The notes under the pieces: model-generated
Told to the model about the DNA's origin: nothing
Seen by the model: the letters and a program-made list of their open reading frames with translations, nothing else
Database searches by the model: none
Made by a program: the position numbers and the translations under genes
Part shown: positions 14,618-53,049 of the stretch, one piece after another
Layout of the letters: each line of letters opens with the position of its first letter
Position numbering within the stretch: the first letter of the stretch is position 1
Source: Candidatus Moraniibacteriota bacterium
GTDB lineage: Bacteria; Patescibacteriota; Minisyncoccia; Moranbacterales; UBA11712
Direction: 5' to 3'
Length of the DNA: 54,090 nucleotides
Assembly: GCA_028716005.1 (NCBI GenBank)
Contig: JAQUQQ010000002.1
Coordinates: 1 to 54,090 of the forward strand

Positions 14618-14659
14618 AATACTAGATACAAGATACTAAATACAATATACTAGATATAT
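14618..14659. repeat. Heptanucleotide array, GTAT/ATAC family, 6 units
   Basis: aatacta gatacaa gatacta aatacaa tatacta gatatat; the last unit contains the lgt ATG (14658). Confidence 0.85.
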
Positions 14660-15494
14660 GCTACAAACCTGGCAAAATATTCCCGCGCATCTGAACCCGA
14701 TCGCTTTCAGCATCGGGCCGATACAAGTTTCCTGGTATGGGATCATGTATGTCGTTGCTTTCGCTGTTGTTTATTACCTTGTCCGCTATCGGATTCGAAC
14801 GGAAAAATTGGGGATTTCCTTTGAAACGGTCCGGGATTTTTTTCCGTGGGCGATTGTCGGACTTCTTGTCGGGGCGCGGCTGGGAGATGTCTTCATATAC
14901 GACTGGGCTTATTTCCAAAATCATCTCTCGCAAATTTTTCTCCCGTTTGATATCCACAACCACTGGCAATATATCGGAATTTACGGCATGAGCTATTTCG
15001 GCGGCCTCGTCGGCCTTGCGATTGTATTTTATATTTTTTGCCGCGCGCGAAAAATTAATCTTTTACAATTCAGCGACCTCTTCGCTCCCGCTGTCCCGCT
15101 CGCCTTCACCTTCGGCCGACTGGGAAACTTCATAAACGGCGAACTCTGGGGCCGCCTCACGAATAAATTCTGGGGAATGTATTTTCCTGCTGATTTTTCC
15201 GCGCGGCTCCGCCACCCATCCCAACTTTATGAAGCTTTTCTCGAGGGAATTTTATTATTTATTATTTTATGGAGTATTCGGAAAATCAAATTCCCCGTTG
15301 GCCATCTCACCGCTTTTTATTTGATAGGCTACGGAACAGCCCGCTTCACCGCCGAATTCTTCCGCGAGCCGGACAACGGCTGGTATTTCTGGTCGCTCAC
15401 TTTTGGGCAGTGGCTTTCTATTTTTCTCGCAATATTTGGGATATCCCTGTTTTTTCGGATAAAATCACCCGAAAATCAGCCGGAACTTCACTAA
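14658..15494 (+). CDS. lgt: Prolipoprotein diacylglyceryl transferase
   Basis: 278 aa multi-pass. IGPIQVSWYGIMYVVAF, FGRLGNFINGELWGR. Confidence 0.9.
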   Translation: MLQTWQNIPAHLNPIAFSIGPIQVSWYGIMYVVAFAVVYYLVRYRIRTEKLGISFETVRDFFPWAIVGLLVGARLGDVFIYDWAYFQNHLSQIFLPFDIHNHWQYIGIYGMSYFGGLVGLAIVFYIFCRARKINLLQFSDLFAPAVPLAFTFGRLGNFINGELWGRLTNKFWGMYFPADFSARLRHPSQLYEAFLEGILLFIILWSIRKIKFPVGHLTAFYLIGYGTARFTAEFFREPDNGWYFWSLTFGQWLSIFLAIFGISLFFRIKSPENQPELH

Positions 15495-15546
15495 AAAGAC
15501 ATTTTGTGCTATACAAATAAAACGCCCCTTTTTCTTGTATAAATCT

Positions 15547-17718
15547 ATGGCGAACAATAAATTTGTAAAGCAATTTCCAGTGACGCGCTTGAGAACCGGT
15601 ATGATGCAAATTGGCCTGGTTTTGGCCATTTTGTTTCTCATTGCCAAATTCAATTATCTCCTTTTCCACGTTTTGGTGGAATTTTCCGGCACGGCGATTA
15701 GCCTCGCAATTTTTCTCTTGGCCTGGAACGCCAGAAAATTCTCGAAAAACAATTACTATCTTTTTTTCGGAATGGCTTTTCTGGCTTCGGGAACAATCAG
15801 TTTGATTCACGCCCTCACTTATCGGGGAATGGGAGTAGTGGCAGAAACAACAAATGACTCCAATATTGCCACCCAACTCTGGCTCGCCAATCAGTATATT
15901 CTGGCCGCCACTTTTGTCATCGCCCCTTTTCTTTTGGGAAAGCGATTGAAATCCCAGTCCATTATCTTGAGTTATTTGGCCGCGTTAGTCTTTGCGCTGG
16001 TGGCTATTTTTTATTGGAAAATTTTTCCTGTTGCCTATGCGGAAGGAACCGGCCTCACCCCTTTCAAAAAAATCAGCGAATATGCCGTGGCCTTTTCCTT
16101 TCTTCTTTCGCTATTTTTTTTCTGGAAGCGCCAAGACCTCATGGAAAAAAGATTTTTTCATCTGGTTGCCGTCACCCTTTCTCTTTTCTTTTTTTCCACT
16201 ATTTCTTTCACGCTTTATGTCGGAGTGTATAGTTTTCCGAACGAACTTGGCCATCTTTTGCGGGTTTTGGCTTTTTACGTGAGTTACCTGGCTTTGGTTG
16301 AATACGGGCTGATGAGACCCTACCATTCGATGTTCCGGGAATTGAGTGAGAGCGAAAAAGTGTTGAAAGAAGCCAAGGACGAGTGGGAGCGGACCTTTGA
16401 CAGTGTTCCGGATTTGATTGCTATTCTCGACACCAAACACACAATCAGAAGAGTGAACCGCGCCATGGCGGAAAGGCTGGGAACATCGGAAGGGAAATGC
16501 GTCGGTCTTCACTGCTACAGCTGCGTGCACGGAAGCAAAGAGCCCATTGCCTCCTGTCCGCATTCGCTAACCTTGAAGGATAAGAAAGAACACATCGCGG
16601 AAGTGGAAGAAGAAAATCTTGGCGGAACATTCCTTGTCAGCACCACGCCTTTTTTTGACGATGACGGCAAACTGATCGGTTCCGTTCATGTCGCCCGTGA
16701 CATCACCGAACGAAAGAAAATGGAAGATAAAATGGCCGATTTGGCCAAATTCCCCGATGAAAATCCGAATCCTGTTCTGAGAATGGATAAATCCGGAAAA
16801 ATACTGTATCAAAACCCGGCCGCAAATAAATTGTTTTCCGGACTGAACGAAAGCGAGAAAAAAAATGTCACGTTCAGCTGGAAAAAAGAGGTGGAAAAAG
16901 CGATAACGCACGAAAGCGAAATGACGTCTGAACTTCTTGTCGGAGAAAAATATTTTTCCGTGATGGTCGCTCCGATAAAAGGATATTCATACGCCAATTT
17001 GTATCCTATGGATATAACGGAGAGGAAGAGGATGGAGATGGCCAAAGACGAATTCATTTCCCTGGCTTCCCACCAGCTGCGAACTCCCCTCGCGAGCATC
17101 AGCCTATCTTCAGAATTGCTTTTGAGAGGAATCAGCGGAAAAATGGATCCCGGGCAGAAAGAAAGCCTTGAAGATATTCACAAATCCATCAAGAAAATGT
17201 CCCTTCTCGTGAGCAACCTTCTCAATGTTTCCCGGGTGGAGATGGGAAATTTCGAAATCAATCCAGAAACGCTGCCCATTTCACATATCGTTGAGGATAC
17301 GATAAAAGATTTTCTGCCCCTCTTCGAGGAAAAAAAGTTGAAGCTCGAAACAAAGATTGGAAAAGAAATCGCCATCCGGAATTTCGACGCGAACAGCTTC
17401 AATATTATTTTCCAGAATCTGCTTTCGAACGCGATCCGGTATACGCCCAAAAGTGGCTCAGTTTCCATTTCCCTCAAGAGAGATGAGAGTGGCATTTTGC
17501 TTTCCGTGGCGGACAGCGGGATTGGAATTCCGGAGGAAGATGCCAAGAAAATTTTTTCAAAATCATACCGCGCAGCCAATGCCCGAAGAAAAACCTCTGA
17601 AGGCGCTGGGCTTGGCCTTTATATGGTGAAAATCGCCTCGGAGCGCGGCGGAGGCAAAATCTGGTTTGAATCCCAAGAAGGGAAAGGAACAACTTTTTTC
17701 GTCTTATTTCCCGAGTAA
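15547..17718 (+). CDS. Sensor histidine kinase with multi-pass membrane sensor domain and PAS domains
   Basis: ORF 15535-17718, ATG at 15547. About 7 TM helices; H-box FISLASHQLRTPL, N-box NLLSNAIRYT, DSGIGI, GAGLGL. Confidence 0.87.
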   Translation: MANNKFVKQFPVTRLRTGMMQIGLVLAILFLIAKFNYLLFHVLVEFSGTAISLAIFLLAWNARKFSKNNYYLFFGMAFLASGTISLIHALTYRGMGVVAETTNDSNIATQLWLANQYILAATFVIAPFLLGKRLKSQSIILSYLAALVFALVAIFYWKIFPVAYAEGTGLTPFKKISEYAVAFSFLLSLFFFWKRQDLMEKRFFHLVAVTLSLFFFSTISFTLYVGVYSFPNELGHLLRVLAFYVSYLALVEYGLMRPYHSMFRELSESEKVLKEAKDEWERTFDSVPDLIAILDTKHTIRRVNRAMAERLGTSEGKCVGLHCYSCVHGSKEPIASCPHSLTLKDKKEHIAEVEEENLGGTFLVSTTPFFDDDGKLIGSVHVARDITERKKMEDKMADLAKFPDENPNPVLRMDKSGKILYQNPAANKLFSGLNESEKKNVTFSWKKEVEKAITHESEMTSELLVGEKYFSVMVAPIKGYSYANLYPMDITERKRMEMAKDEFISLASHQLRTPLASISLSSELLLRGISGKMDPGQKESLEDIHKSIKKMSLLVSNLLNVSRVEMGNFEINPETLPISHIVEDTIKDFLPLFEEKKLKLETKIGKEIAIRNFDANSFNIIFQNLLSNAIRYTPKSGSVSISLKRDESGILLSVADSGIGIPEEDAKKIFSKSYRAANARRKTSEGAGLGLYMVKIASERGGGKIWFESQEGKGTTFFVLFPE

Positions 17719-17749
17719 TATATTTTTCAAAACGATAAAATTGGGAACA

Positions 17750-28843: not shown

Positions 28844-29033
28844 TTTAGGCTTGTATAAGCCAAAAATACCAAGTCATACAAAGCCCCTTGACGCCCCGGG
28901 CCGCTTCTGCTAGCATAACCCTTGTCAACAATAAATGGAGTAGCTATTAGTGCTATTCTTTTTTTGTTGGTCGCAGGCGAAAAGAGGCTTCAAAAGGTCC
29001 TTTAGCCGAAGATAATCCTTGAAATATCTGCCA

Positions 29034-29949: not shown

Positions 29950-29984
29950 GCGTTACCGGTTATGCGTTATGCGTTATGCGTTAC
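29950..29984. repeat. Heptanucleotide array, GCGTTAY family, 5 units
   Basis: gcgttac cggttat gcgttat gcgttat gcgttac; begins 5 nt after the rpoD TAG (minus-strand sense). Confidence 0.9.
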
Positions 29985-31289: not shown

Positions 31290-33089
31290 CTATTCAAGCT
31301 GGCTCGACAAATTTTGGAATTCCTGAAGCAACGCTTTCGCCGCTTTTTTATCGCCGGATTTCTCGGCTTCTTTTATTTTTTTGGAGAATTCAACTGTCTT
31401 TTCTTTGATCCTCATGCTTCTATGCCTTTTCAGTGATTTTTTGAGATCCTCTTCCGGAAAAGGAATTCTGTTTTCATCCCTTTCCACTTCAATTTCAAAG
31501 ACAGCCTCGTCAATCAGCCTTTGGGCTTCAAAATCAAAAACCAAGTTTTTTATTTTCTCGGAATCTTCCCCCGGCTTTTCTTTTTTGATTCTTTCGATTA
31601 TTTTTTCTGTCTTGTCTGAAAATTCTTTCGGGTCGATAGCCGCCTTTTGCCTTTCCGTCTCCCGGGGAAAAGCGAGCAGAAGGCCGATTATTCTTCTTTC
31701 CACCGCTTTTTCTTTTCCCGCGCTTTGGAAAGAAGCGTTCTCCTTTTGCCCGGCAGCCGTTTTCGGTTCGCTTTTGGCTTTTCTCAAAATTTCGACCAAG
31801 GCTCCTTCCCCGACACCCAGTTTTTCGGCCAGCTTCTTGATCCAGTGCCCCTTTTCAACGGGGTTGGAGATATCTTTCAAAACATTCAAAAGTTCTTTGG
31901 CGATTTTTTTCTTGTCGGCCGGATTTTTCGGGTCATGCCGCGAAAAGGCGTCCTCAAAGAAATATTCAACGACTTCCCGGGCCCCTTCGACCGCCTTTTC
32001 CCAAACGGCCTTGTCTTCCCGGACAACATCCGCCGCGTCCTTGCCTCTTGGCAACAGGACTATTCTAACATTCAAATCATTCTCAAGGCAAACTTTGGCG
32101 CTTCTTCTGGCCGCCGTCTGCCCGGCCGCGTCCATGTCAAAGGCCATCTTGATATTTTCCGTATAGCGCCTGATGACTTTTATCTGTTCCGGTCCGAAAG
32201 CCGTTCCGGAAACCGCTATCGTGTTTTGCAATCCCGCCTGCTGGGAAGCAATCACGTCCATGTTTCCTTCCACTAGTACGACTTCATCCCTCTTTTTGAT
32301 TTCAGTTTTGGCAAAATTGAGCCCATAAAGCACTTTGCTTTTGTCATAAAGTTCCGTCTGGGGCGTATTTATGTATTTGGCCGTTTTTTCGTCTCCGCCG
32401 GGAGCCACCCGCGCCGCAAAGCCCACCACCCGGCCCATGATGTCTTGAACCGGAAACATAATTCTATCCCTGAATCTGTCGTAAGCGTTAGTATTTGGTA
32501 TCTTGTATCTGGTATCCGGTATTTTGTTCTCGGAATCCTTTTCGACCAGCAGGCCAGTTTTAGCAATGTCCTCTATTTTATAATTTTTCTTCTGTAGAAA
32601 CTCCAGCATATTCCTCCATCCTTCCGGCGCGTAGCCGAGGCGGAATTTTTTGATTGTTTCGTCCGTGAGGCCACGTCCCCGCAAATATTTCAATATTTTG
32701 TCTTGGCCTTTTCCCTCCCAAAGATTCTTTTCATACCATTTCGCCGCGAGTTCCAAAATGTTATATAGTTTCGGCTTTGCGCTTTCTTTTTCCCTATCGC
32801 CCTTCTCAAATCTTTTCAGCTCAATTCCGGCTTTTTGGGCCAGCTGTTCAAGCGCTTCCCGAAATTCAATTCCTTCCATTTCCATCACAAAAGTGAAAAT
32901 GTCTCCGCCTTTTCCGCAGCCAAAGCAGTGAAAGCTCCGTCGCTCTTCGCTCACCATGAACGAGGGTGTTTTTTCATTATGAAAAGGACAGAGAGCCCTC
33001 CAAGCGCTCCCTGCTTTTTGAAGCCGGACATATTCGCCGACCAGATCAACGACACTTATTCTGTTTTTTATATCTTCAACGTCGGACAT
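31290..33089 (-). CDS. dnaG: DNA primase
   Basis: ORF 31290-33107 (GTG), trimmed to the ATG at 33089 (MSDVEDIKNR). CHC2 zinc finger CPFHNEKTPSF...CFGCG; TOPRIM VLVEGNMDVIA. Confidence 0.92.
   Translation of the reverse strand: MSDVEDIKNRISVVDLVGEYVRLQKAGSAWRALCPFHNEKTPSFMVSEERRSFHCFGCGKGGDIFTFVMEMEGIEFREALEQLAQKAGIELKRFEKGDREKESAKPKLYNILELAAKWYEKNLWEGKGQDKILKYLRGRGLTDETIKKFRLGYAPEGWRNMLEFLQKKNYKIEDIAKTGLLVEKDSENKIPDTRYKIPNTNAYDRFRDRIMFPVQDIMGRVVGFAARVAPGGDEKTAKYINTPQTELYDKSKVLYGLNFAKTEIKKRDEVVLVEGNMDVIASQQAGLQNTIAVSGTAFGPEQIKVIRRYTENIKMAFDMDAAGQTAARRSAKVCLENDLNVRIVLLPRGKDAADVVREDKAVWEKAVEGAREVVEYFFEDAFSRHDPKNPADKKKIAKELLNVLKDISNPVEKGHWIKKLAEKLGVGEGALVEILRKAKSEPKTAAGQKENASFQSAGKEKAVERRIIGLLLAFPRETERQKAAIDPKEFSDKTEKIIERIKKEKPGEDSEKIKNLVFDFEAQRLIDEAVFEIEVERDENRIPFPEEDLKKSLKRHRSMRIKEKTVEFSKKIKEAEKSGDKKAAKALLQEFQNLSSQLE
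32489..32523. repeat. Heptanucleotide array (GTAT family, 5 units) in frame inside dnaG
   Basis: tagtatt tggtatc ttgtatc tggtatc cggtatt; translated as NKIPDTRYKIPNT just before the conserved YDRFRDRIMFP. Confidence 0.88.
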
Positions 33090-33098: not shown

Positions 33099-33126
33099 GT
33101 GACGCACAACGCAAAACCTATAACGC
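33099..33126. repeat. Heptanucleotide array, GCGTTAY family, 4 units, inverted orientation
   Basis: gtgacgc acaacgc aaaacct ataacgc; lies 10 nt upstream of the dnaG ATG. Confidence 0.7.
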
Positions 33127-33127
33127 G

Positions 33128-33146
33128 TTTGGAAAATATTTCTAAA
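33128..33146. repeat. AT-rich hairpin between the two inverted arrays
   Basis: tttggaaa-ata-tttctaaa (8 bp including one G-T). Confidence 0.6.
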
Positions 33147-33180
33147 CGTTCTGCGTTACACGTTCTACATTACACGTTAT
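33146..33180. repeat. Heptanucleotide array, GCGTTAY family, 5 units
   Basis: acgttct gcgttac acgttct acattac acgttat; overlaps the TAA stop (33177-33179) of the next gene. Confidence 0.8.
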
Positions 33181-39393: not shown

Positions 39394-39408
39394 ATTGTTA
39401 TTTTTAGT

Positions 39409-39871: not shown

Positions 39872-42313
39872 CTACCTCTCCATCTTCTCAATCGCAATCA
39901 TTGTCTTGATGACCGTATCCGGGTTGAGGGATATAGAATCAATTTTTTCCTTCACTAAAAATTGAGCAAAATCAACAAAATCCGACGGCGCCTGGCCGCA
40001 AATTCCGACTTTGCGGCGGGCTTTGTGGGCTTTTTCTATAACTTGGCGGATGAGTTCTTTCACGGCTTCATTGCGCTCGTCATAGACATGCGCCACTTTG
40101 GCGCTGTCCCGATCCACTCCAAGAGTGAGTTGCGTGAGATCGTTCGAACCGATGGAAAATCCGTCAAAAATTTTTGAAAATTCCGCGGCGAGAATCACGT
40201 TCGAAGGAATTTCACACATAACGTTAACCTGAAGACCTCCTTCTCCGCGCTTGAGTCCATATTTTTCCATTTCAGCGAGAACTTTTTTTCCTTCCTCGAC
40301 CGTCCGGCAAAATGGAATCATGGCTTTCATGTTCGTGAGTCCCATCACATCGCGCACTTTCTTGAAAGCCAGGCACTCGAGGCGAAATCCTTCTTTATAA
40401 TCTTCGTCATAGTATCTCGACGCCCCCCGCCAGCCAATCATTGGGTTTTCTTCAGCCGGTTCGAAACTCTTTCCGCCAATCAAGGTCGCGTATTCATTCG
40501 TTTTGAAGTCCGACATCCGAACAATCACGTCTTTCGGCCAAAAAGCGGCGCAAATCCGCCCGATTCCCTCGGCCAATTTCTCCACAAAAAAATCTTCTTT
40601 GTTTTTATAGCCCTGCGTGAGTTCGTTGATTTTCTTTTTTTCCTCTTTTTCTTTCACTTTCTCGAAATGGATGAGAGCCATCGGGTGGATTTTGATATAT
40701 TCCGTGATGATGAATTCTTCTCGGGCGAGGCCAACACCATCGTTTGGTATAAAACTCAAGTCAAAAGACTGATCGGGATTGCCGACATTCATCATAATCT
40801 TCGTCTTCGATTTTTTGATATTTTTGAGGTTGGTTGTTTTTATCTCAAATTTGAGAAGGCCGTCATAGACATGCCCCTCTTCCCCCTCGGCGCAGCAGAC
40901 TGTCACCGGCTTTGTGTCTTTCACGGCGCTGGTCGCGTTTCCGGCTCCGACAATGCAGGGAATTCCAAGCTCGCGCGAAACAATCGCCGCGTGGGATGTC
41001 CGACCGCCGGAATTCGTGACAATGGCCGAAGCAATTTTCATGATTGGCTCCCAGTCCGGATCAGTCATTTCCGTCACCAGGACTTCGCCTTTTTTGAAAT
41101 CCGCGATTTTAGCCACGTCTTTGATCACATTGGCTTTCCCTTGACCGATTTTTCCTCCCACTGCCGCGCCAGTGCACAAAATTTTGCTTTTTGATTTCAA
41201 AATATATTCTTCAAGGACATTCTTTTCTTTTTGCGACTGCACGGTTTCGGGACGGGCCTGGACGATATAGAGTTTTCCGTCTCGGCCGTCTTTGGCCCAT
41301 TCGATGTCCATCGGCTTTTTGTAGTGCTCCTCAATGATGAGCCCCCACTTGGCCAGTTCCAGCGCTTCTTCATCCGTGAGACAGAATTTTTTTTGGTCTT
41401 CCTGCGAAACCGCCACGTTTTGAGTTGAAGCCCCGCCCCCGACGGAATAAACCAGTTTCGTTTCCTTGCTCCCCAGCTTTTTCCCGACAATTGATTTGAA
41501 TCCCTTTCGAAGAGTCGGCTTGTGAACGATGAATTCATCCGGATTAACCTTGCCCTTCACGATATTTTCTCCAAGACCCCAGGAGCCGTTCAGGATAATC
41601 GCGTCCGAAAATCCCGATTCAGTGTCGATCGTGAACATCACCCCGCTTGAAGCCTCGTCGGAGCGCACCATTTTTTGCACTCCTACCGAAAGAGCGATTT
41701 TGAGATGGTCGAAACCCTTATCCACGCGATAGGATATGGCCCGATCGGTGAAAAGTGAAGCAAAACATTTCTTGATCGACTCAAGAATTTGATATTCTCC
41801 GGTGATGTTGAGATAAGATTCCTGCTGACCGGCGAAAGACGCGTCCGCAAGATCCTCGGCGGTCGCGCTGGATCGCACCGCGACGTCCACTCCGCCGGCG
41901 AAATGATTGGTATGATCTTTTTTGTCCCAGCTTATTTTGAAACTGCGGTGCGGATTATATTCACGGGAAAGTTTCGAGTATGATTCAACGATTGAATTTC
42001 GAAGGTCGAAAGGAAATTCCGCCGAAAGAATAGCCTGGCGCACTTTGTATCCTCGTTCGGCGAGATTTCGCATATTTCCCGTATCAAGGCCCTTCAGAAT
42101 TTTTTTGATTTCCGCGTCCAGATTATTCTGGCGCAAAAAATAGCGGTAAGCTTCGGAGGTTATGGAAAAACCATCAGGAATTCTGATTCCATACTTGCGA
42201 AGATTCCGATGCATTTCCCCAAGCGAGGCGTTTTTCCCGCCGACAAGTTCGATATCTTTTATTCCGGTTTCACGAAACCAGAGAATGTATTTTGTTTTTG
42301 TATTGTATATCAT
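39872..42313 (-). CDS. ppsA: Phosphoenolpyruvate synthase (pyruvate, water dikinase)
   Basis: 813 aa. ATP-grasp N-terminus, swivel His GGRTSHAAIVSRELGIPCIVG, C-terminal PEP-utilising TIM barrel. Confidence 0.93.
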   Translation of the reverse strand: MIYNTKTKYILWFRETGIKDIELVGGKNASLGEMHRNLRKYGIRIPDGFSITSEAYRYFLRQNNLDAEIKKILKGLDTGNMRNLAERGYKVRQAILSAEFPFDLRNSIVESYSKLSREYNPHRSFKISWDKKDHTNHFAGGVDVAVRSSATAEDLADASFAGQQESYLNITGEYQILESIKKCFASLFTDRAISYRVDKGFDHLKIALSVGVQKMVRSDEASSGVMFTIDTESGFSDAIILNGSWGLGENIVKGKVNPDEFIVHKPTLRKGFKSIVGKKLGSKETKLVYSVGGGASTQNVAVSQEDQKKFCLTDEEALELAKWGLIIEEHYKKPMDIEWAKDGRDGKLYIVQARPETVQSQKEKNVLEEYILKSKSKILCTGAAVGGKIGQGKANVIKDVAKIADFKKGEVLVTEMTDPDWEPIMKIASAIVTNSGGRTSHAAIVSRELGIPCIVGAGNATSAVKDTKPVTVCCAEGEEGHVYDGLLKFEIKTTNLKNIKKSKTKIMMNVGNPDQSFDLSFIPNDGVGLAREEFIITEYIKIHPMALIHFEKVKEKEEKKKINELTQGYKNKEDFFVEKLAEGIGRICAAFWPKDVIVRMSDFKTNEYATLIGGKSFEPAEENPMIGWRGASRYYDEDYKEGFRLECLAFKKVRDVMGLTNMKAMIPFCRTVEEGKKVLAEMEKYGLKRGEGGLQVNVMCEIPSNVILAAEFSKIFDGFSIGSNDLTQLTLGVDRDSAKVAHVYDERNEAVKELIRQVIEKAHKARRKVGICGQAPSDFVDFAQFLVKEKIDSISLNPDTVIKTMIAIEKMER

Positions 42314-42332
42314 GTATTTTGTATTATGTATT
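42298..42332. repeat. Heptanucleotide array, GTAT family, 5 units
   Basis: ttgtatt gtatatc atgtatt ttgtatt atgtatt; spans the ppsA start (42311-42313) and the TAA of the four-helix-bundle gene (42324-42326). Confidence 0.8.
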
Positions 42333-42698
42333 TTTTATTTTTTTTAATCCGCAGATCAATTTGTGTGCTACAATTGTTTGATTCGCAATTCTACTAAAAT
42401 CTTCTTTTTGCAAATAGCCCACATCCCGTGCAACAGTTAACTGATTCTGAAGTTCAGTCAAAGAGCCTAACGCTATGGCATAAAATTGTAATTTTTCTTT
42501 GATTGTATTCCGGCTAAAACCCTCTGCGATGTTAGAAGTTATAGAAACAACGCAACGCCTCATCTGAATAGTTAATCCGAAAAGTTCTTCTTTAGGAAAA
42601 TTTTTTGTAACTTCATAAACTAAAAGGACGAGTTTATGTCCTTCTCGCCAAGCATTTAAATCTGTGAAAGATTTTATTTTACTTCCCTCCTTAATCAT
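42324..42698 (-). CDS. Four-helix-bundle protein (23S rRNA intervening-sequence protein family, TIGR02436-like)
   Basis: 124 aa. FTDLNAWREGHKLVLLVYEVTKNFPKEELFGLTIQMRRCVVSITSNIAEGFSR...LQFYAIALGSLTELQNQL. Confidence 0.82.
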   Translation of the reverse strand: MIKEGSKIKSFTDLNAWREGHKLVLLVYEVTKNFPKEELFGLTIQMRRCVVSITSNIAEGFSRNTIKEKLQFYAIALGSLTELQNQLTVARDVGYLQKEDFSRIANQTIVAHKLICGLKKIKNT

Positions 42699-42730
42699 AC
42701 ACTATACGCTATACAAAATACACTATACAC
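42696..42730. repeat. Heptanucleotide array, GTAT family (ATAC orientation), 5 units
   Basis: catacac tatacgc tatacaa aatacac tatacac; the first 3 nt are the start codon of the four-helix-bundle gene, and the last nt begins the pyk TAG. Confidence 0.85.
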
Positions 42731-45612: not shown

Positions 45613-45778
45613 TAAAATCCTAAATTCTAAACACTAAATCCCAAACAAATTCTCAGCCAGAGGCTGATCCGCCTTTGGTGGAAAATTATCAAAATTCAAA
45701 TGACCAAACTACTTTTGACTTTCGTCATTTCGAATTTTGATATTATTTAGGATTTCGAAATTAGGATTTAGGATTTTG
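45613..45778. mobile_element. MITE-like composite: inverted CTAAATY heptad arrays flanking a twin hairpin and an AATGAC hairpin
   Basis: Left taaaatc ctaaatt ctaaaca ctaaatc ccaaaca (45613-45647). Twin hairpin at 45653-45682. aaatgac...gtcattt. Right tatttag gatttcg aaattag gatttag gattttg (45744-45778). Confidence 0.45.
45653..45682. repeat. Twin 15-nt hairpin GC element
   Basis: tcagcc-aga-ggctga tccgcc-ttt-ggtgga. Confidence 0.85.
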
Positions 45779-48012: not shown

Positions 48013-49267
48013 GGTCGTTCCAGGGAATCCTTTTTGCGCCGACTACCATTATCTCTTCCGCCCCTTTCCCGGTGACGGCGACTATATCTCCCGACTTTGC
48101 AATCTGCAAGGCTTTTTTGATGGCTTCGCGACGATCAAATATCCGCCAGGCATTTTCGTTTTCTTTTTTGTGTTTCAAAACTCCAGCAAAAACTTCGTCA
48201 ATAATTTTTTGAGGATCTTCATTATACGGATCTTCATTGGTGACAAAACAATAGTCAGCATGTCGCGCCACAATTTCTCCCATAATCGGCCTCTTGCCCC
48301 GGTCTCTTTCTCCGCAAGAGCCAAAGACGGCGATTATTTTCGCGTTTTCTTTTTTTAGCTTGTTTATATAATTATATAATTTTTCGAGCGAATCCGGTGT
48401 CACGGCGAAATCAACAATGATTTCGAGTCCCCGGTCATTCTCAATATGCTCCATCCTGCCGGACACGCCTTTTATTTTCGCGAGAGCCTGTGAAATTTTC
48501 GGCAGCGCTATATTTTGTGAAAGTCCCACGCACGTCGCGGCCAAAGCGTTTTCGACATTAAATTCCCCCGGCAAATTAATTTGGAAGCTAGTATCTTGTA
48601 TTTGGTATTTGGTATTTTCTGTCCCTAGTTCAATGTTTTCGGAAATAATTTCGTGGAACGTATTGAACTGTGTTATGCGTTCTACGTTACGCGTTGCAAG
48701 ATGATATCCGTATTTATCTTTTACTCCATACTTTAAAAAATCCTCTGCTTTTTCCATTGCTAAATTAACCACTGTTGCTCCATTTATATTCTTCGCTGTC
48801 ATCGCAAATAGCTTTTCTTTCGCTTTCGCATACTTTTCCATCGTTTCGTGGTAATCAAGATGTTCCCGCGTTAAATTCGTTATCGCCGCCACATCGAAAT
48901 CGGTGCCCCAGACGCGGTTTTGGTCAAGTGAATGCGAAGATATTTCGAGAACGGCATAACTGCAACCCGCTTTAACGGCTTCGCTCAGATGTCTTTGCAA
49001 TCGCCAGCTGGAAAGCGTCGTAAACTTTGTGTCGTTCACCCATTCTTTTTCGCCGATCTTGAAATTTATGGTCGAGGCTACGGCGACCTTGTCGCCGGCC
49101 TCTTCCAGAATTTTGGCTATCATCTGCACCGTCGTCGTTTTGCCGTTCGTTCCCGTCACTCCTATAGCTTTCAATTTCCTTGACGGAAAACCATGCCAAA
49201 CATTCGCGAGAACCGCTTGGAAAAGATGATATATGTTTTTGACGGATTGGGGAATGATCTTTTTCAC
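47969..49267 (-). CDS. murE: Mur ligase, MurE-like (UDP-MurNAc-tripeptide synthetase)
   Basis: 432 aa. IGVTGTNGKTTT, LEISSHSLDQNRV, NLTREHLDYH, DRREAIKKAL...GKG. The 3' end overlaps the convergent PAP2 gene by 44 nt. Confidence 0.82.
   Translation of the reverse strand: MKKIIPQSVKNIYHLFQAVLANVWHGFPSRKLKAIGVTGTNGKTTTVQMIAKILEEAGDKVAVASTINFKIGEKEWVNDTKFTTLSSWRLQRHLSEAVKAGCSYAVLEISSHSLDQNRVWGTDFDVAAITNLTREHLDYHETMEKYAKAKEKLFAMTAKNINGATVVNLAMEKAEDFLKYGVKDKYGYHLATRNVERITQFNTFHEIISENIELGTENTKYQIQDTSFQINLPGEFNVENALAATCVGLSQNIALPKISQALAKIKGVSGRMEHIENDRGLEIIVDFAVTPDSLEKLYNYINKLKKENAKIIAVFGSCGERDRGKRPIMGEIVARHADYCFVTNEDPYNEDPQKIIDEVFAGVLKHKKENENAWRIFDRREAIKKALQIAKSGDIVAVTGKGAEEIMVVGAKRIPWNDPRVIREILSEQMKK
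48589..48616. repeat. Heptanucleotide array (GTAT family, 4 units) in frame inside murE
   Basis: tagtatc ttgtatt tggtatt tggtatt; translated as NTKYQIQDT. Confidence 0.85.
48670..48697. repeat. Heptanucleotide array (GCGTTAY family, 4 units) in frame inside murE
   Basis: gtgttat gcgttct acgttac gcgttgc; translated as ATRNVERITQ. Confidence 0.8.
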
Positions 49268-49343: not shown

Positions 49344-50378
49344 TCACGGCTTTATTCTTCTTAGTGTTTTATATATCCAATATTTCGTGGGATTCAAGAT
49401 TATATCATAGCATCCAGGAAATTCAATAGTCCTTGTCTCCGGCGCAAAGCCGGTTTTGAATTTTGTGATTCCTGCCCAGTTTTTGTATTTAGTATTTGGT
49501 ATCTGGTATTTGGTATTTACTCCTCCGAGATCGTATTTTATACAGCCATTCTTTTTTGCATCGATAATCGTTTGCCATTGGAGAAGATACGGCGCCATCG
49601 CATCGCGATGCGCGTTATCCGACGCCCCGTGCATATACGTCGCCGTTTTTCCAAAAAACAAAACCAAGTTCGCGGCAATAATTTTCCCCTCATATTCGGC
49701 AGCATATAGTTTCAAAATTTCCGGTGGAATTGTTTCGAACATTTTTCGATAATAGTTTTCGGGATGTGCCGTAATCTTATCCCGCTGACTGGTGATTTTC
49801 ACTAGTCTCAAAAACTCTTCGATATTTTCCTGCGCTATACGTTCCACGTTATGCGTTATGCGAACGCCTTTCTTTTGAGAAAGGCGAATATTGTACCGCG
49901 TTTTCTGCTTCATTCCTGCCAAAATTTCTTCTTCGCTCTTCGAAATATCCAAAACCAATATTTCCCTCGGCTGCATATTCACCGGTGATTTTTTCATTTT
50001 TTTCTCTTTCGACAGACTTTCTTTTATCATCTCCAATCCTTCCGCGCTATTCGGCTCAACCCGAATCCAACCAACATTATTTTCTTTCGACAGACTAATT
50101 AAATTATCAAGAAAAATTTTTATTTTCCTCTCCGCGTTTTGCGTTATGCGTTTTGCGTTGTGCGTTACCGGTCCCCGTGGCACATAAAAATAATTCCCAA
50201 CAAGAGGAAGCGAATGCGCTATCGCATATGCATATATGAAAGCATTGCCATTTTCCTTTTCCTCCAGCTCAAAAGTTTTTCGACCGACACTTTCCTGAAA
50301 CTTCCGCCAATAAACTGATTGCAAAAAGCCCCCATGAGGGGAATTTTGTTGAACAAAATCAAAAAAATTCTTCTCCAT
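49344..50378 (-). CDS. femX: FemAB-family peptidoglycan bridge-forming aminoacyltransferase
   Basis: ORF 49344-50420 trimmed to the ATG at 50378 (MEKNFFDFVQQ), because the extension is encoded by a heptad array. FLQSVYWRKFQ, YMHGASDN...APYLLQW, KFKTGF. Confidence 0.8.
   Translation of the reverse strand: MEKNFFDFVQQNSPHGGFLQSVYWRKFQESVGRKTFELEEKENGNAFIYAYAIAHSLPLVGNYFYVPRGPVTHNAKRITQNAERKIKIFLDNLISLSKENNVGWIRVEPNSAEGLEMIKESLSKEKKMKKSPVNMQPREILVLDISKSEEEILAGMKQKTRYNIRLSQKKGVRITHNVERIAQENIEEFLRLVKITSQRDKITAHPENYYRKMFETIPPEILKLYAAEYEGKIIAANLVLFFGKTATYMHGASDNAHRDAMAPYLLQWQTIIDAKKNGCIKYDLGGVNTKYQIPNTKYKNWAGITKFKTGFAPETRTIEFPGCYDIILNPTKYWIYKTLRRIKP
49483..49517. repeat. Heptanucleotide array (GTAT family, 5 units) in frame inside femX
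   Basis: ttgtatt tagtatt tggtatc tggtatt tggtatt; translated as NTKYQIPNTKYK. Confidence 0.9.
49832..49866. repeat. Heptanucleotide array (GCGTTAY family, 5 units) in frame inside femX
   Basis: gcgctat acgttcc acgttat gcgttat gcgaacg; translated as RITHNVERIAQ. Confidence 0.85.
50134..50168. repeat. Heptanucleotide array (GCGTTAY family, 5 units) in frame inside femX
   Basis: gcgtttt gcgttat gcgtttt gcgttgt gcgttac; translated as VTHNAKRITQNAE. Confidence 0.9.
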
Positions 50379-50412
50379 ATACCAAATACTAGATACTAAA
50401 TACCAGATACTA
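50378..50412. repeat. Heptanucleotide array, GTAT family, 5 units, filling the ruvA-femX junction
   Basis: tatacca aatacta gatacta aatacca gatacta; the last 3 nt are the ruvA TAG, and the first nt is the last base of the femX ATG. Confidence 0.9.
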
Positions 50413-50979
50413 CTTCCCAAGATTCTTGAGCGCCGCCCGCACTCTCTCTGAAATGTCTTTTATTTTTTCTGGAACATTTTTCAAGGCTTCACGAGACTGG
50501 GTATTCGTGTATCCTAACGAAATCAGCGCTTCTATCGCTTCGGAATCGGCTTTAGCCGAACCTCCATCTTCCCCCGGAAGCTCAATGATACGATTCTTGA
50601 GTTCAAGGATCACCCGCTCGGCCGTCTTTTTTCCAACTCCCGAAACGCGCGTCAGAATCGATGAATCGCCCGATATCACCGCCGCCCGAATTGTTTTCGG
50701 CTCCGCGATGGAAAGGATTCCCATCGCAGCTTTCGGCCCGATTCCGGAAATGGAGATGAGCAGTTCAAACATTTCGAGTTCATCCAGAACCAAAAACCCG
50801 TAAAGCGACAGAGTGTCCTCGCGAACATAGGTATGGGTGTATAATTCTATTTCCTCTTTCCCGGCGATTTTCCCCATTGTAAAATCAGTGACGAATATCT
50901 TGTATCCGACTCCGGAAACGTCCACGATGACGTAGCTGTCGCGAAAAAAAGCGATTTTTCCTGTTATTTTGGCAATCAT
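50410..50979 (-). CDS. ruvA: Holliday junction DNA helicase subunit RuvA
   Basis: 189 aa. MIAKITGKI..., two HhH motifs (ISGIGPKAAMGIL, VSGVGKKTAERV). Confidence 0.92.
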   Translation of the reverse strand: MIAKITGKIAFFRDSYVIVDVSGVGYKIFVTDFTMGKIAGKEEIELYTHTYVREDTLSLYGFLVLDELEMFELLISISGIGPKAAMGILSIAEPKTIRAAVISGDSSILTRVSGVGKKTAERVILELKNRIIELPGEDGGSAKADSEAIEALISLGYTNTQSREALKNVPEKIKDISERVRAALKNLGK

Positions 50980-50983
50980 ATGT

Positions 50984-51018
50984 TTGTATCTAGTATATAG
51001 TATCTGGTATTTGGTATA
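50984..51018. repeat. Heptanucleotide array, GTAT family, 5 units
   Basis: ttgtatc tagtata tagtatc tggtatt tggtata; begins 5 nt upstream of the ruvA ATG. Confidence 0.88.
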
Positions 51019-51120
51019 TTTTTACAATACCTCGCGACTATTTACAAAAATAACTAACTGTGTTAGAAATATAGAGTGTTTTCAACCATTTTAAATTTTC
51101 AATTGTAATTTTTAATTTTT

Positions 51121-51150
51121 TCAGCCAAAGGCTGATCCGCCTCGGGAGGA
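51121..51150. repeat. Twin 15-nt hairpin GC element
   Basis: tcagcc-aaa-ggctga tccgcc-tcg-ggagga; lies between the divergent ruvA and rpsT. Confidence 0.85.
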
Positions 51151-51496: not shown

Positions 51497-51944
51497 ACTT
51501 CTTCTTCAATTTCCTTCTATAAACGCTCGTATCTCTTCTATCAAATTTCAGTTTTTTATAAAATTTATGGGATTCGGCACGATCATTACGACTGGAGAGA
51601 TCAACGTGCTTGGCGCCGTTTTTCTTGGCCCGGGATATCATATGGCTTATTATTCTCTTCCCGTGCCCTTTTCTTCGATGTTCCGGACAAACAACGACAT
51701 CTTCAATCCATGCCGATTTTTTTACAAGAGTTTCAAAATAGTGAAGGCTTCCCATGCCAATTATATCTTTTCCAAACTCCAACAGATATATCTCTAAAAG
51801 ATGGTTATTCAATAACTCCCGAAATCTCTTCTTGTTGACTGTATAATTGTTTGGTGATAAATGCCCTAACAAATTATTGATTGAGCTAATCAACTCATTC
51901 GTCAGTTCCGCATTTCTCTGAATTTTATATATCTTGTGTTTCAT
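51495..51944 (-). CDS. GNAT family N-acetyltransferase
   Basis: 149 aa. VVVCPEHRRKGHGKRIISHMISRAKKNG. Confidence 0.85.
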   Translation of the reverse strand: MKHKIYKIQRNAELTNELISSINNLLGHLSPNNYTVNKKRFRELLNNHLLEIYLLEFGKDIIGMGSLHYFETLVKKSAWIEDVVVCPEHRRKGHGKRIISHMISRAKKNGAKHVDLSSRNDRAESHKFYKKLKFDRRDTSVYRRKLKKK

Positions 51945-51975
51945 TTTGCGTTATGCGTTATTTGTTGCGCGGATC
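51941..51975. repeat. Heptanucleotide array, GCGTTAY family (degenerate ends), 5 units, filling the holA-GNAT junction
   Basis: tcatttt gcgttat gcgttat ttgttgc gcggatc; GNAT ATG at 51942-51944, holA TGA at 51974-51976. Confidence 0.65.
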
Positions 51976-52960
51976 AAACTCCCGCAATGAACTTATCCAG
52001 CGCCAATCCAACCTCAACTTTTCCCGTTTTCGCTTCGAAATCAATTTTGCAGAGATTGTTATACAACTTTTTTAGCTCGGCCAGCGAGAAATTTCTCCCT
52101 TGCTCGACGCTTTTTCGGGCGACATAAGGATGAATCTTGAGCTTGGCGGAAATTTCATGCGGCGGCGCGTTTTTTTCCGCAAGCGGTTTCACTTTGAGAA
52201 GGTTCCGGAACTGGAAAAAATACATTGAAAGAAGATAATAGGGATCTTCACCCGCCTCGAGATGATCGTGGAGCAGTTTCACGGCTGATTTTTTGTCTCC
52301 GCGGGCCATCGCGTCGATTGTTTCGAAAATATCCGTGTCAATTTTCGATTTCACGAGAAGTTCGACATCTTCTTCGGAAATTTCTCCTTTGCCCCTGAAG
52401 GCAACCAATTTTTCGATTTCTTTTGAGAGAAGCGCGAGATTGTTCCCGACAAAAATTGAAAGTTTCCCGGCGGCTTTTGGGCTGATGGATACTTTGTCTT
52501 CCCCAACTTGCCCGCCGAAGCCTTGGCAAAGGCGGGTCTCTTCAATCACCCAACTTTTCAGTTTCACTCCATCCAAAAGGCCGAACTCCTGTTTTTTCGA
52601 TTTTTCAAGAAGAAATTTCGTCAGCTTCAATTTTTTGTCGATTTTTTCTTTTTCCCAAAATACGAAGGTGAGATCTTTCATTTCTCCCTTTTCCGCCTTT
52701 TTTAGAAAACCGAGAAGCTCCAAATCTTGCGCCGCTGTTTTATTTTGAAGAATGTTTTTCACGATTGCCAATTTTTTGTTCGAAAACAATCCACCCGAAG
52801 AAAGCTTGATGAGCATTTCATTGATTTTTTCTGTCGGTTCGGCAAAGTCAAAAACAAAAAGGGTGCTGCCCTCTTTGTAATTTTGGAGAAATTTGTCTTT
52901 TACCTCGGCGAGTTTCCGGTTCGATCGAAATTCATCCTCGCCATATAGAAAAATTATCAT
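51974..52960 (-). CDS. holA: DNA polymerase III delta subunit
   Basis: 328 aa. MIIFLYGEDEF..., overall HolA-like layout; weak family, called by pattern. Confidence 0.72.
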   Translation of the reverse strand: MIIFLYGEDEFRSNRKLAEVKDKFLQNYKEGSTLFVFDFAEPTEKINEMLIKLSSGGLFSNKKLAIVKNILQNKTAAQDLELLGFLKKAEKGEMKDLTFVFWEKEKIDKKLKLTKFLLEKSKKQEFGLLDGVKLKSWVIEETRLCQGFGGQVGEDKVSISPKAAGKLSIFVGNNLALLSKEIEKLVAFRGKGEISEEDVELLVKSKIDTDIFETIDAMARGDKKSAVKLLHDHLEAGEDPYYLLSMYFFQFRNLLKVKPLAEKNAPPHEISAKLKIHPYVARKSVEQGRNFSLAELKKLYNNLCKIDFEAKTGKVEVGLALDKFIAGV

Positions 52961-53014
52961 GGAACGTGAAATGCTGAACCCAAAGCGCCAATGATTTTAT
53001 TTTTGGTTATGTTT

Positions 53015-53049
53015 TCGTTCCACGTTGTGCGCTATGCGTTACGCGACTA
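53015..53049. repeat. Heptanucleotide array, GCGTTAY family, 5 units
   Basis: tcgttcc acgttgt gcgctat gcgttac gcgacta; the last 3 nt are the TAG of the DUF3048 gene. Confidence 0.8.

What the first reader, a model, noticed from the sequence alone, without database searches (positions are those of the whole stretch)
14618..53049. Pervasive 35-nt arrays of five degenerate heptanucleotides that tile gene junctions codon to codon
About 20 sites carry 4-8 (modal 5, i.e. 35 nt) tandem degenerate heptamers. The NNGTATY family is at 14618-14659, 32489-32523, 42298-42332, 42696-42730, 48589-48616, 49483-49517, 50378-50412 and 50984-51018. The GCGTTAY family is at 29950-29984, 33099-33126, 33146-33180, 48670-48697, 49832-49866, 50134-50168, 51941-51975 and 53015-53049. 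There are also CTAAATY arrays (45613-45647 and 45744-45778), AT-only heptads (38354-38409) and a 9-mer variant (33497-33540). Array ends coincide with codons. 42696-42730 runs from the ATG of the four-helix-bundle gene to the pyk TAG. 50378-50412 runs from the femX ATG to the ruvA TAG. 51941-51975 runs from the GNAT ATG to the holA TGA. 14618-14659 ends in the lgt ATG. Unrelated heptamer sequences share the same 5x7 architecture, which argues for a length- or periodicity-constrained process or function rather than random slippage. Tandem heptanucleotide STRR repeats are known from heterocystous cyanobacteria. I know of no description of junction-filling arrays like these in a CPR-like genome.
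Basis: partly seen in the sequence, partly recalled or inferred. Interest (0 to 1): 0.82.

Follow-up and report, generated by a model that had tools for sequence, protein, structure and literature searches.

The report
Heptamer arrays tied to IVP gene cassettes
The ~35-nt arrays of five 7-nt repeats are real and far beyond chance, and they turn out to be the arms (and scattered single copies) of small stem-loop elements that, in their complete form, bracket a gene for a ring-shaped five-subunit protein of unknown function, which gives a testable candidate partner for a class of bacterial repeats that has had none.

Summary
OBSERVATION: confirmed. Period 7 is the only enriched tandem period in the window (9-14 arrays; 0 in shuffles; 0-1 for other periods). 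Arrays have 4-6 units, mode 5. About half abut stop or start codons. Six lie inside real genes (dnaG, a Mur ligase, femX) and are translated.

SOURCE: a Candidatus Moranbacteria (CPR) genome.

MAIN RESULT: the one 'four-helix-bundle' gene in the window (PF05635, S23p/23S-rRNA-IVP, Avd-like) is bracketed by two inverted arrays.
- In 80 loci fetched by IVP protein similarity alone, 62% of IVP genes have inverted complementary flanks, against 4% of neighbouring genes.
- The arms peak sharply at 5 units. Solved homologues of this protein are homopentamers.
- The ruvA|femX junction carries a solo array (window, L241), a short-loop hairpin of arrays (L242) or a full IVP cassette (L243).
- Arrays persist at orthologous junctions and protein loops while their unit sequence turns over.

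BEST READING (shown in part): IVS-type stem-loop elements and their ORF-less or single-arm derivatives. They are probably RNase III or regulatory sites. The 5x7 format probably matches the pentameric protein.

PRIOR ART: cyanobacterial and Beggiatoa heptamer repeats, and heptamers upstream of S23p in the Coxiella IVS. No paper found by these searches makes the general link.

NEGATIVE: no IVP genes near cyanobacterial TAACTGA arrays.

The parts
42324..42698 (-). IVP / S23p gene (124 aa, four-helix bundle, Avd-like): the ORF in the loop of the complete cassette
   Evidence: Pfam PF05635 at E 6e-35, and bAvd at 1.5e-5, which is below that model's cutoff. PDB 2GSC at E 6e-22, an entry with 5 chains.
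42696..42730 (-). Upstream arm of the cassette: 5 heptamers (NNGTATR in coding sense) running from the pyk TAG to the IVP ATG
   Evidence: It pairs with the downstream arm in the minimum-free-energy fold.
42286..42341 (-). Downstream arm of the cassette (RATACNN in coding sense, 5-8 units). It overlaps the IVP stop codon and encodes the first residues of ppdK (MIYNTKTKY)
33099..33180 (-). ORF-less hairpin element. The stop codon of the TM1266-like gene lies in the first unit, followed by RTAACGY x5, a 19-nt loop, GCGTTRY x4, then the dnaG ATG 9 nt further on
   Evidence: RNA fold gives a 30-bp stem at -30.5 kcal/mol, z = -3.55.
45613..45778 (-). ORF-less hairpin element between LemA and the M48 peptidase: inverted CTAAATY arrays around a 96-nt structured loop
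   Evidence: RNA fold -62.3 kcal/mol, z = -8.3. Flanking genes.
50378..50412 (-). Solo 5-unit array filling the ruvA TAG to femX ATG junction
   Evidence: The same family occupies the same site in L241. L242 has a hairpin there, and L243 has a full IVP cassette.
50984..51018 (-). 5-unit RATACNN array forming the leader directly upstream of the ruvA ATG. It is the inverted partner of 50378-50412 across ruvA
   Evidence: It is nearly identical at nucleotide level in L241 and L243 and follows a conserved promoter-like sequence.
14616..14657 (+). 5-6-unit RATACNN array ending in the lgt ATG
   Evidence: lgt confirmed by Pfam.
29950..29984 (.). GCGTTAY x5 array between the convergent 3' ends of ORF 29019-29897 and rpoD
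32489..32523 (-). In-frame array inside dnaG, translated as KIPDTRYKIPNTN in a loop before the YDRFRDRIMFP motif
   Evidence: An array occupies the same position in at least 7 Moranbacteria, with different units. The loop is 12-30 aa longer than in other CPR.
48589..48697 (-). Two in-frame arrays inside a Mur ligase gene (48589-48616 GTAT family; 48670-48697 CGTTAY family)
   Evidence: L243 carries arrays at similar positions in its Mur ligase, with other units.
49483..50168 (-). Three in-frame arrays inside femX (49483-49517, 49832-49866, 50134-50168), translated as NTKYQIPNTKYK, GVRITHNVERIAQ and VTHNAKRITQNA
   Evidence: The three positions are hypervariable hot spots across 120 homologues. 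Confirmed as DNA arrays in L241-L243.
51941..51975 (-). Weak GCGTTAY array (2 perfect units) between the holA TGA and the GNAT ATG
53015..53049 (-). GCGTTAY-family array starting at the DUF3048 stop codon, upstream of holA
   Evidence: The same junction carries an array in L241, L242 (an inverted pair) and L243, each with a different unit.

Best explanation
WHAT IT IS
The arrays are the arms, and the dispersed single-arm or ORF-less derivatives, of an IVS-type stem-loop element. Its complete form is a ~125-aa gene for a four-helix-bundle protein (S23p / 23S-rRNA-IVP, PF05635, Avd-like). That gene is bracketed almost codon to codon by two inverted arrays of about five heptamers.
- One complete copy lies at 42286-42730, between pyk and ppdK.
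- Other junctions carry the same stem with a short loop (33099-33180 and 45613-45778) or a single arm.
- Further copies sit in permissive loops of essential genes and are translated into heptad-like peptides.

HOW IT PROBABLY WORKS
- In a transcript the two arms pair into a 28-35-bp duplex that encloses the ORF. This is predicted here.
- RNase III has been shown to cut this kind of stem in the rRNA-borne IVS of Coxiella and others. The elements are therefore probably tolerated, or used, as intercistronic processing or regulatory sites. This is inferred.
- The 5 x 7-nt format most likely reflects binding by the homopentameric IVP ring, one unit per protomer. This is inferred from the stoichiometry and from the Avd-RNA structure.
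- Arrays persist at given sites while their unit sequence turns over.
For: SHOWN
1. All 6 IVP genes found by chance in earlier loci are flanked by period-7 arrays. This includes a GC-rich genome with unit CAGCGNN.
2. Unbiased test: 80 loci were fetched by IVP protein similarity only. 51 of 80 have an array within 200 nt. Other periods are essentially absent near IVP genes.
3. The arms are inverted complements of each other. 40 of 77 own pairs exceed the 95th percentile of mismatched pairs, and direct matching is at background.
4. 62% of IVP genes have an inverted-flank score of at least 12, against 4% of 303 other genes in the same loci. 54% of IVP gene ends carry an array, against 19% of other gene ends.
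5. Tight tiling: the host stop codon lies within 7 nt of the arm start in 20 of 31 cases, and the next ATG follows the downstream arm by a median of 6 nt.
6. The arms peak at 5 units with an uncensored detector.
7. The ruvA|femX junction exists as a solo array, a hairpin or a full IVP cassette in four related genomes. In L001 the pyk|ppdK junction lacks the gene.
8. Arrays away from a cassette share its unit: 44% within one mismatch in the same locus, against 8% between loci. The window's second unit, GTAACGC, flanks an IVP gene in L217.
9. The predicted folds pair the arms, with z = -3.6 and -8.3 for the two short-loop elements.

FROM THE LITERATURE
- The Coxiella IVS carries an S23p ORF, a 28-bp terminal stem cut by RNase III, and 2-4 heptamers directly upstream of the ATG whose number varies between strains. 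The X. campestris S23p is a homopentameric toroid (PMC4990558).
- The Avd pentamer binds an RNA stem-loop with all five protomers, and the same residues from different protomers contact the flipped-out bases (bioRxiv 10.1101/2023.10.23.563531).
Against: - One genome carries many unrelated unit families. There are at least 7 in the 21 kb of L243. That is hard to reconcile with a single sequence-specific binder.
- No IVP gene lies within the 8-kb windows around 119 cyanobacterial, Beggiatoa or Bacteroidota TAACTGA arrays. IVP genes of Flavobacterium and Bacteroidales mostly lack arrays. The link is therefore not universal.
- Mismatches between units are only weakly column-specific: 4.0 variable columns observed against 4.5 expected.
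- The 96-nt loop of the ORF-less element is not detectably an IVP remnant (E about 6).
- In-CDS arrays cannot be decayed full cassettes, so a separate route must spread single arrays.
- L001 keeps array-like periodicity at ppdK without the gene, so the direction of events (gain or loss) is unresolved.
- Nothing here shows RNase III cleavage, protein binding or mobility.
Confidence: 0.55

Rival explanations
1. The arrays are host cis-regulatory sites for post-transcriptional or translational control, as proposed for TAACTGA repeats. They would be bound by a factor unrelated to IVP, such as ribosomal protein S1, a cold-shock protein or CsrA. IVP genes would be just one regulated gene class, or would insert preferentially where arrays already exist.
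For: - Many arrays end at start codons.
- The ruvA leader array is conserved at nucleotide level across three genomes whose FemX proteins are only 62-70% identical.
- Arrays persist at orthologous junctions.
- The same placement is described in Beggiatoaceae (PMC4679880). Deleting heptamer repeats alters reporter expression in Nostoc and E. coli (bioRxiv 10.1101/2022.06.06.494920).
- No IVP gene lies near TAACTGA arrays.
Against: - It does not explain the inverted complementary arms specific to IVP genes, 62% against 4%.
- It does not explain the arrays inside coding regions.
- It does not explain why both orientations occur upstream of ATGs.
- It does not explain why the unit sequence can change completely at one site.
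Confidence: 0.2
2. The arrays are neutral or selfish microsatellite-like products of replication slippage, similar to STRR, with no function. The 5-unit mode would be a mutational equilibrium, and the IVP association a by-product of where insertions are tolerated.
For: - Units are degenerate and turn over.
- Unit number varies between Coxiella strains.
- Arrays in other phyla have a long tail of unit numbers.
Against: - Only period 7 is enriched.
- Counts drop sharply from 5 units (114) to 6 units (19), and the tail then declines more slowly (uncensored check).
- The two arms of a cassette stay complementary although units differ between cassettes.
- The ruvA leader array is conserved at nucleotide level.
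Confidence: 0.12
3. The arrays are double-stranded DNA binding sites for a repeat-reading protein, in the manner of the heptad operators of ribbon-helix-helix repressors such as omega of pSM19035 (from my own knowledge). They would act on transcription or on chromosome organisation.
For: - The heptad period and the occurrence of both direct and inverted arrangements resemble omega operators.
- One array sits directly after a promoter-like sequence.
Against: - Many arrays lie in coding regions and at operon-internal junctions.
- No ribbon-helix-helix gene was seen next to an array.
- Unit sequences are too diverse within one genome.
Confidence: 0.05
4. The arrays are assembly or sequencing artefacts.
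For: None found.
Against: The same kind of array occurs at orthologous positions in many independent assemblies from different projects. These include the dnaG loop, ruvA|femX, DUF3048|holA and the femX loops.
Confidence: 0.01

Closest known systems
23S rRNA intervening sequence (IVS) carrying an S23p ORF (Coxiella burnetii, Leptospira; PMC4990558)
   Same: - Same protein family (PF05635).
- The ORF sits in the loop of a stem made by terminal inverted repeats.
- Tandem heptamers lie directly upstream of the ATG, and their number varies.
   Different: - Here the element is not in rRNA. It lies between protein-coding genes (pyk and ppdK).
- The whole stem is built from two arrays of about five heptamers.
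- Related arrays are scattered over many junctions and inside coding regions.
- The protein looks conserved across 80 homologues, whereas in Coxiella it is reported to be decaying.
Intergenic heptamer direct repeats: TAACTGA in Beggiatoaceae, Cyanobacteria and Bacteroidetes (MacGregor 2015, PMC4679880); cyanobacterial STRR; Nostoc recF/recO repeats (bioRxiv 10.1101/2022.06.06.494920)
   Same: - Tandem 7-nt units, a few copies per set.
- Mostly intergenic, often ending at or 1 nt before a start codon.
- A few lie in ORFs.
- The binding partner is unknown.
   Different: - Different phylum (CPR).
- Many unit families per genome, rather than one favoured heptamer.
- A sharp 5-unit mode.
- A systematic inverted pairing around IVP genes. 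I found no IVP gene near 119 TAACTGA arrays.
REP / RAYT (REPIN) systems (from my own knowledge)
   Same: A dispersed short repeat family whose members also flank, in inverted orientation, a single small gene. Singlets and hairpin-forming doublets are scattered through intergenic regions.
   Different: The flanked gene here is a four-helix bundle with no known catalytic activity, not a HUH Y1 transposase. The repeats are tandem heptamer arrays, not imperfect palindromes.
Avd pentamer bound to RNA in diversity-generating retroelements (bioRxiv 10.1101/2023.10.23.563531)
   Same: A homologous pentameric barrel. It binds an RNA stem-loop with all five protomers through repeated identical contacts.
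   Different: There is no reverse transcriptase or TR/VR pair next to the window's IVP gene. The Avd ligand is not a heptamer array.
TRAP 11-mer binding 11 (G/U)AG repeats (from my own knowledge)
   Same: A ring homo-oligomer in which the number of RNA repeats equals the number of subunits.
   Different: Unrelated fold. Binding of IVP to arrays has not been shown.
Rickettsia palindromic elements inserted in frame in genes (from my own knowledge)
   Same: A dispersed repeat tolerated in frame within loops of essential proteins.
   Different: RPEs are 100-150-bp palindromic elements, not 35-nt tandem arrays.

Membership tests
IVS-type element with S23p/IVP ORF | ORF belongs to PF05635 (23S_rRNA_IVP) | tested here: met
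   Pfam E 6e-35, 120 bits against a cutoff of 33.8. PDB 2GSC at E 6e-22.
IVS-type element with S23p/IVP ORF | Terminal inverted repeats able to form a stem that encloses the ORF | tested here: met
   The arms pair in the minimum-free-energy fold. Own-pair complementarity is far above controls in 77 cassettes.
IVS-type element with S23p/IVP ORF | Tandem heptamers directly upstream of the ORF start | tested here: met
.
IVS-type element with S23p/IVP ORF | Inserted in a 23S rRNA helix (25 or 45) | tested here: not met
   The element lies between pyk and ppdK. Rfam finds no rRNA in the window.
IVS-type element with S23p/IVP ORF | Excised from the transcript by RNase III | not testable with these tools
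   This needs RNA end mapping or an in vitro cleavage assay.
Heptamer direct repeats of the STRR / TAACTGA kind | Tandem direct repeats of a 7-nt unit, a few copies per set, enriched beyond chance | tested here: met
Heptamer direct repeats of the STRR / TAACTGA kind | Mostly intergenic and close to start codons | tested here: inconclusive
   About half of the window's arrays abut a start or stop codon. Six are in coding regions. In L241, 9 of 14 are in coding regions.
Heptamer direct repeats of the STRR / TAACTGA kind | The characteristic unit sequence (TAACTGA, or STRR1-3) | tested here: not met
   The units here are NNGTATY, GCGTTAY, CTAAATY and others.
REP / RAYT (REPIN) | Dispersed repeats that also flank the associated gene in inverted orientation | tested here: met
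REP / RAYT (REPIN) | The associated gene encodes a HUH Y1 transposase | tested here: not met
   The gene is a PF05635 four-helix bundle.
Diversity-generating retroelement | Avd-like gene next to a reverse transcriptase, with a TR/VR pair | tested here: not met
   The neighbours are pyk and ppdK. The bAvd Pfam hit is below its cutoff. A true bAvd plus RVT_1 pair does exist in relative L241.
Ring protein reading one RNA repeat per subunit (TRAP-like logic) | Number of repeats equals the number of subunits | tested here: met
   The modal number of units is 5. Homologues are homopentamers (2GSC has 5 chains). The oligomeric state of this particular protein was not tested.
Ring protein reading one RNA repeat per subunit (TRAP-like logic) | Direct, unit-number-dependent binding of the protein to the array | not testable with these tools
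   This needs EMSA, ITC or cryo-EM.

The most novel reading that the evidence does not exclude
S23p/IVP pentamers are the missing trans-acting partners of heptanucleotide arrays. A five-protomer ring reads 5 x 7-nt arrays. Together with its own inverted arms it forms a gene-plus-repeat system, comparable in logic to RAYT/REPIN. That system seeds arrays into operon junctions and into loops of essential proteins across CPR and several other phyla. It would give a first function to a protein family that has been enigmatic since the 23S rRNA intervening sequences were described.
Probability: 0.3. Interest if true: 0.9.

Novelty: new variant of a known kind. Interest (0 to 1): 0.74.

Why it matters
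1. It links two orphan observations. One is short heptamer arrays at start codons, described in cyanobacteria and giant sulfur bacteria with no known partner. The other is the S23p/IVP proteins of rRNA intervening sequences, which have no known function. The result is a simple testable hypothesis: does the pentamer bind five heptamers?
2. It shows that IVS-like elements are not confined to rRNA. In CPR bacteria they populate operon junctions.
3. The same arrays are written into loops of essential enzymes (primase, FemX, Mur ligase) and turn over between species. This is an unrecognised source of protein-length variation in very small genomes.
4. The arrays supply stop and start codons at gene boundaries, which matters for gene calling in CPR genomes.

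Tried and rejected
- Assembly artefact: rejected, because the arrays recur at orthologous sites in independent assemblies.
- Exact look-up of the window's ppdK in the contig index: not on record.
- Rfam: no family matches any array or hairpin. The only hit in the window is a tRNA.
- Shine-Dalgarno test: uninformative. SD-like motifs are rare in this genome overall (6 of 25 control genes), so their absence before array-preceded genes means little.
- Is the 96-nt loop at 45648-45743 a remnant of an IVP gene? Best blastx E is about 6, so this is not significant.
- Conserved core plus variable spacer inside units: only a weak effect, 4.0 variable columns against 4.5 expected.
- Extending the IVP link to cyanobacterial and Beggiatoa TAACTGA repeats: negative. 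There were 0 IVP-like ORFs in 119 loci (880 kb), while the same motif recovered all known positives.
- My first seed-based array detector under-counts 3-4-unit arrays. Its apparent mode was therefore re-checked with an uncensored detector at pre-defined positions.
- The first enrichment figure (2.08 against 0.157 arrays per kb) ignores the general preference of arrays for intergenic DNA. It was replaced by a per-gene control.
- In-CDS arrays as simple 35-nt insertions: not supported. Alignments to solved FemX structures show net insertions of only 0-6 aa.

Full report
1. OBSERVATION

Tandem Repeats Finder reports period-7 arrays at most of the listed coordinates, and the sequences read as described. 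A lag-p self-match scan finds nine segments at period 7 and none at any other period from 5 to 15. Twenty dinucleotide shuffles give none. A detector that tolerates two degenerate positions per unit finds 14 arrays of 4-6 units (4 units: 4; 5 units: 6; 6 units: 4). Shuffles give none, and other periods give 0-1. GTAT cores spaced exactly 7 nt apart form eight chains, and seven of them span five units.

The stated coincidences with the pyk, IVP, ruvA, femX, holA, GNAT and lgt start and stop codons hold against ORF coordinates and Pfam annotation.

Three items are weaker:
- 38354-38409 is two 14-mers 42 nt apart rather than a heptad array.
- 33497-33540 has period 9/17.
- 51941-51975 has two perfect units.

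The main correction concerns location. Six arrays are not at junctions. They lie inside dnaG, a Mur ligase gene and femX, and they are read through in frame. Pfam domains align on both sides in one ORF, so these arrays are translated and not removed.

2. SOURCE AND RELATIVES

DnaG relatives identify the source as a Candidatus Moranbacteria (CPR, Parcubacteria) genome. Period-7 arrays recur in the Moranbacteria loci, at 1.1 per 10 kb. They are nearly absent from dnaG loci of other CPR and other phyla, at 0.14 per 10 kb.

The array inside dnaG sits at the same position in at least seven species but with different units (RATACNN, AATATCC/AAATCTC, GGAATCA, GAACAGC). The loop it encodes is 12-30 aa longer than in non-Moranbacteria CPR.

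3. LINK TO THE IVP GENE

The gene at 42324-42698 is a PF05635 protein (23S-rRNA-IVP, also called S23p, bAvd-like). It is flanked by two arrays in inverted orientation.

A pattern scan for GTATY arrays returned hits in many phyla. Every IVP-like ORF that happened to lie in those loci was bracketed by period-7 arrays. This included a GC-rich genome with unit CAGCGNN.

Those loci had been selected by array sequence, so I fetched 80 further loci by IVP protein similarity alone.
- 51 of 80 have an array within 200 nt of the gene. Other periods are essentially absent there.
- The anatomy is constant: [host stop] - array - ATG...IVP...stop - reverse-complement array - [next ATG].
- The two arms of a cassette are complementary to each other but not to the arms of other cassettes. 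40 of 77 own pairs exceed the 95th percentile of mismatched pairs, and direct-repeat matching is at background.
- Against a fair control, the other 303 predicted genes in the same loci, 62% of IVP genes have an inverted-flank score of at least 12, compared with 4%. 54% of IVP gene ends carry an array, compared with 19%.
- The host stop codon lies within 7 nt of the arm start in 20 of 31 cases. The next ATG follows the downstream arm by a median of 6 nt. The downstream arm often overlaps the last IVP codons.

4. FIVE UNITS

With the seed-based detector the counts are:
- arms flanking IVP genes: 4 units: 16; 5 units: 53; 6 units: 8;
- other arrays in the same loci: 4: 25; 5: 61; 6: 11;
- Moranbacteria dnaG loci: 4: 6; 5: 14.

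That detector under-counts short arrays. I therefore re-measured at pre-defined positions with no seed threshold. Upstream flanks give 3: 16, 4: 14, 5: 32, 6: 2. Downstream flanks give 3: 8, 4: 17, 5: 29, 6: 11. Shuffled flanks never exceed 4. The mode at 5 and the sharp fall above it are real for the cassette arms.

Arrays in loci from cyanobacteria and other phyla also peak at 5 but have a much heavier tail.

5. ONE JUNCTION, SEVERAL STATES

Synteny with close relatives is good.
- In L001, whose pyk is 96.5% identical, the IVP gene and the upstream arm are absent. A terminator- and promoter-like spacer takes their place, while RATAC periodicity remains at the 5' end of ppdK.
- At ruvA|femX, the window and L241 carry a solo five-unit array of the same family. 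L242 carries a hairpin of inverted arms of that family with an 18-nt loop. L243 carries a complete IVP gene with arms of a different unit.
- DUF3048|holA carries an array in all four genomes, with four different units.
- Two window junctions (33099-33180 and 45613-45778) have the cassette anatomy with loops of 19 and 96 nt. They fold into long stems with z = -3.6 and -8.3.
- In the full cassette, the minimum-free-energy fold pairs the two arms around the whole ORF.
- The array that forms the ruvA leader is nearly identical in three genomes whose FemX proteins are only 62-70% identical, including at its 'degenerate' positions. That argues for selection on at least some arrays.
- Arrays distant from a cassette tend to share its unit: 44% within one mismatch in the same locus, against 8% between loci. 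The window's second unit (GTAACGC) flanks an IVP gene in L217.

6. ARRAYS INSIDE GENES

An alignment of 120 FemX homologues shows three hypervariable positions between invariant motifs. Most species carry peptides there that are translations of different heptamers: NTKYQIP, HNTQHIT, HNMEHGTW, INDQRSM, SNFQFPI, KSEKLKV. Some species carry none. One family often recurs at several sites in one protein.

DNA from three of these genomes confirms arrays of mostly five units at these sites and in the Mur ligase gene. Alignment to solved FemX structures shows net insertions of only 0-6 aa. The arrays therefore largely replace a native loop rather than simply adding 35 nt. In L241, 9 of 14 arrays fall within called genes.

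7. LITERATURE

- The Coxiella IVS in 23S rRNA carries an S23p ORF and a 28-bp terminal stem that RNase III cuts. It has two to four heptamers directly upstream of the ATG, and their number differs between strains. The paper also cites the X. campestris S23p structure as a homopentameric toroid (PMC4990558). The window's protein matches that structure, 2GSC, which has five chains.
- Avd, the DGR relative, is described as a pentameric barrel similar to S23 proteins. It binds an RNA stem-loop with all five protomers through repeated identical contacts (bioRxiv 10.1101/2023.10.23.563531).
- Intergenic heptamer repeats ending at start codons, with no known partner, are described for Beggiatoaceae, Cyanobacteria and Bacteroidetes (PMC4679880) and for Nostoc repair genes. 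The TAACTGA paper (PMC4679880) does not mention S23p, IVP or four-helix-bundle proteins. The Nostoc preprint names no binding partner; I did not search its text for those terms.
- My searches found no paper that makes the general link, or that describes such arrays in CPR.

8. LIMITS AND NEGATIVES

- 119 loci fetched with TAACTGA x3 (880 kb, mostly cyanobacteria) contain no IVP-like ORF, while the same procedure recovers the known positives.
- IVP genes of Flavobacterium and Bacteroidales mostly lack arrays.
- One genome holds many unit families, which does not fit a single sequence-specific reader.
- Column-specific conservation within units is weak.
- The loop-remnant test and the Shine-Dalgarno test were uninformative.
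- Cleavage, binding and mobility were not and could not be tested here.

9. VERDICT

The best-supported reading is a family of IVS-type stem-loop elements: an IVP gene between inverted 5x7 arms, together with ORF-less and single-arm derivatives. These elements occupy operon junctions and permissive protein loops in Moranbacteria and many other CPR lineages.

The association, the anatomy, the 5-unit mode and the alternative states at one junction are shown. RNase III processing and pentamer binding are inferred from homologues.

Relative to what is known, this is a new variant of known kinds (IVS elements and heptamer repeats) rather than a new category. It also makes the function of S23p/IVP directly testable.

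Noticed in passing
L241:12321-13725: A DGR-like gene pair lies immediately downstream of femX in a Moranbacteria relative: a weak bAvd hit on the minus strand next to an RVT_1 reverse transcriptase, beside a 353-aa ORF with no Pfam hit. The window has no such pair at this position.
   Followed up: no
window 42286-42313: The first residues of ppdK (MIYNTKTKY) are encoded by the downstream arm of the IVP cassette. L001 keeps a similar RATAC-periodic 5' end without the IVP gene.
   Followed up: partly
window 38410-38440: A GC-rich hairpin (CCACCC..GGGTGG, then GGTCCCCCGCAGGGGG) sits next to the AT-rich repeat in the PfkB|AdoHcyase junction. It is a single copy in the window. A similar GC-rich structured stretch occurs in the pyk|ppdK spacer of L003 (about 4200-4260).
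   Followed up: partly
window 39412-39496: A tRNA gene on the minus strand overlaps the 5' part of the mechanical ORF 38449-39498. The PfkB gene must therefore start further downstream (Pfam aligns from residue 73).
   Followed up: no
window 1-29000 versus 29000-54090: The arrays are very unevenly distributed. About 18 lie in the last 25 kb. The first 29 kb holds one clear array (14616-14657) and two weak 4-unit candidates (676-703 and 2136-2163).
   Followed up: no
window 33490-33539: A 9/17-nt tandem repeat (TTTTCCAAA, about 5 copies) lies at the NUDIX | TM1266-like junction. It has a different period from all the other arrays.
   Followed up: no
window 51040-51130; L241:9226-9330; L243:8764-8870: The divergent region between rpsT (S20) and ruvA is conserved at nucleotide level across three genomes. 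It includes an AT-rich stretch with period about 7 (51088-51120) and a promoter-like TTGTAA...TAAAAA just before the ruvA leader array.
   Followed up: partly
window 50378-51018: ruvA itself is bracketed by inverted GTAT-family arrays, RATACNN upstream and NNGTATY downstream, in the window and in L241. A host gene thus sits in the same 'loop' position as the IVP gene.
   Followed up: partly
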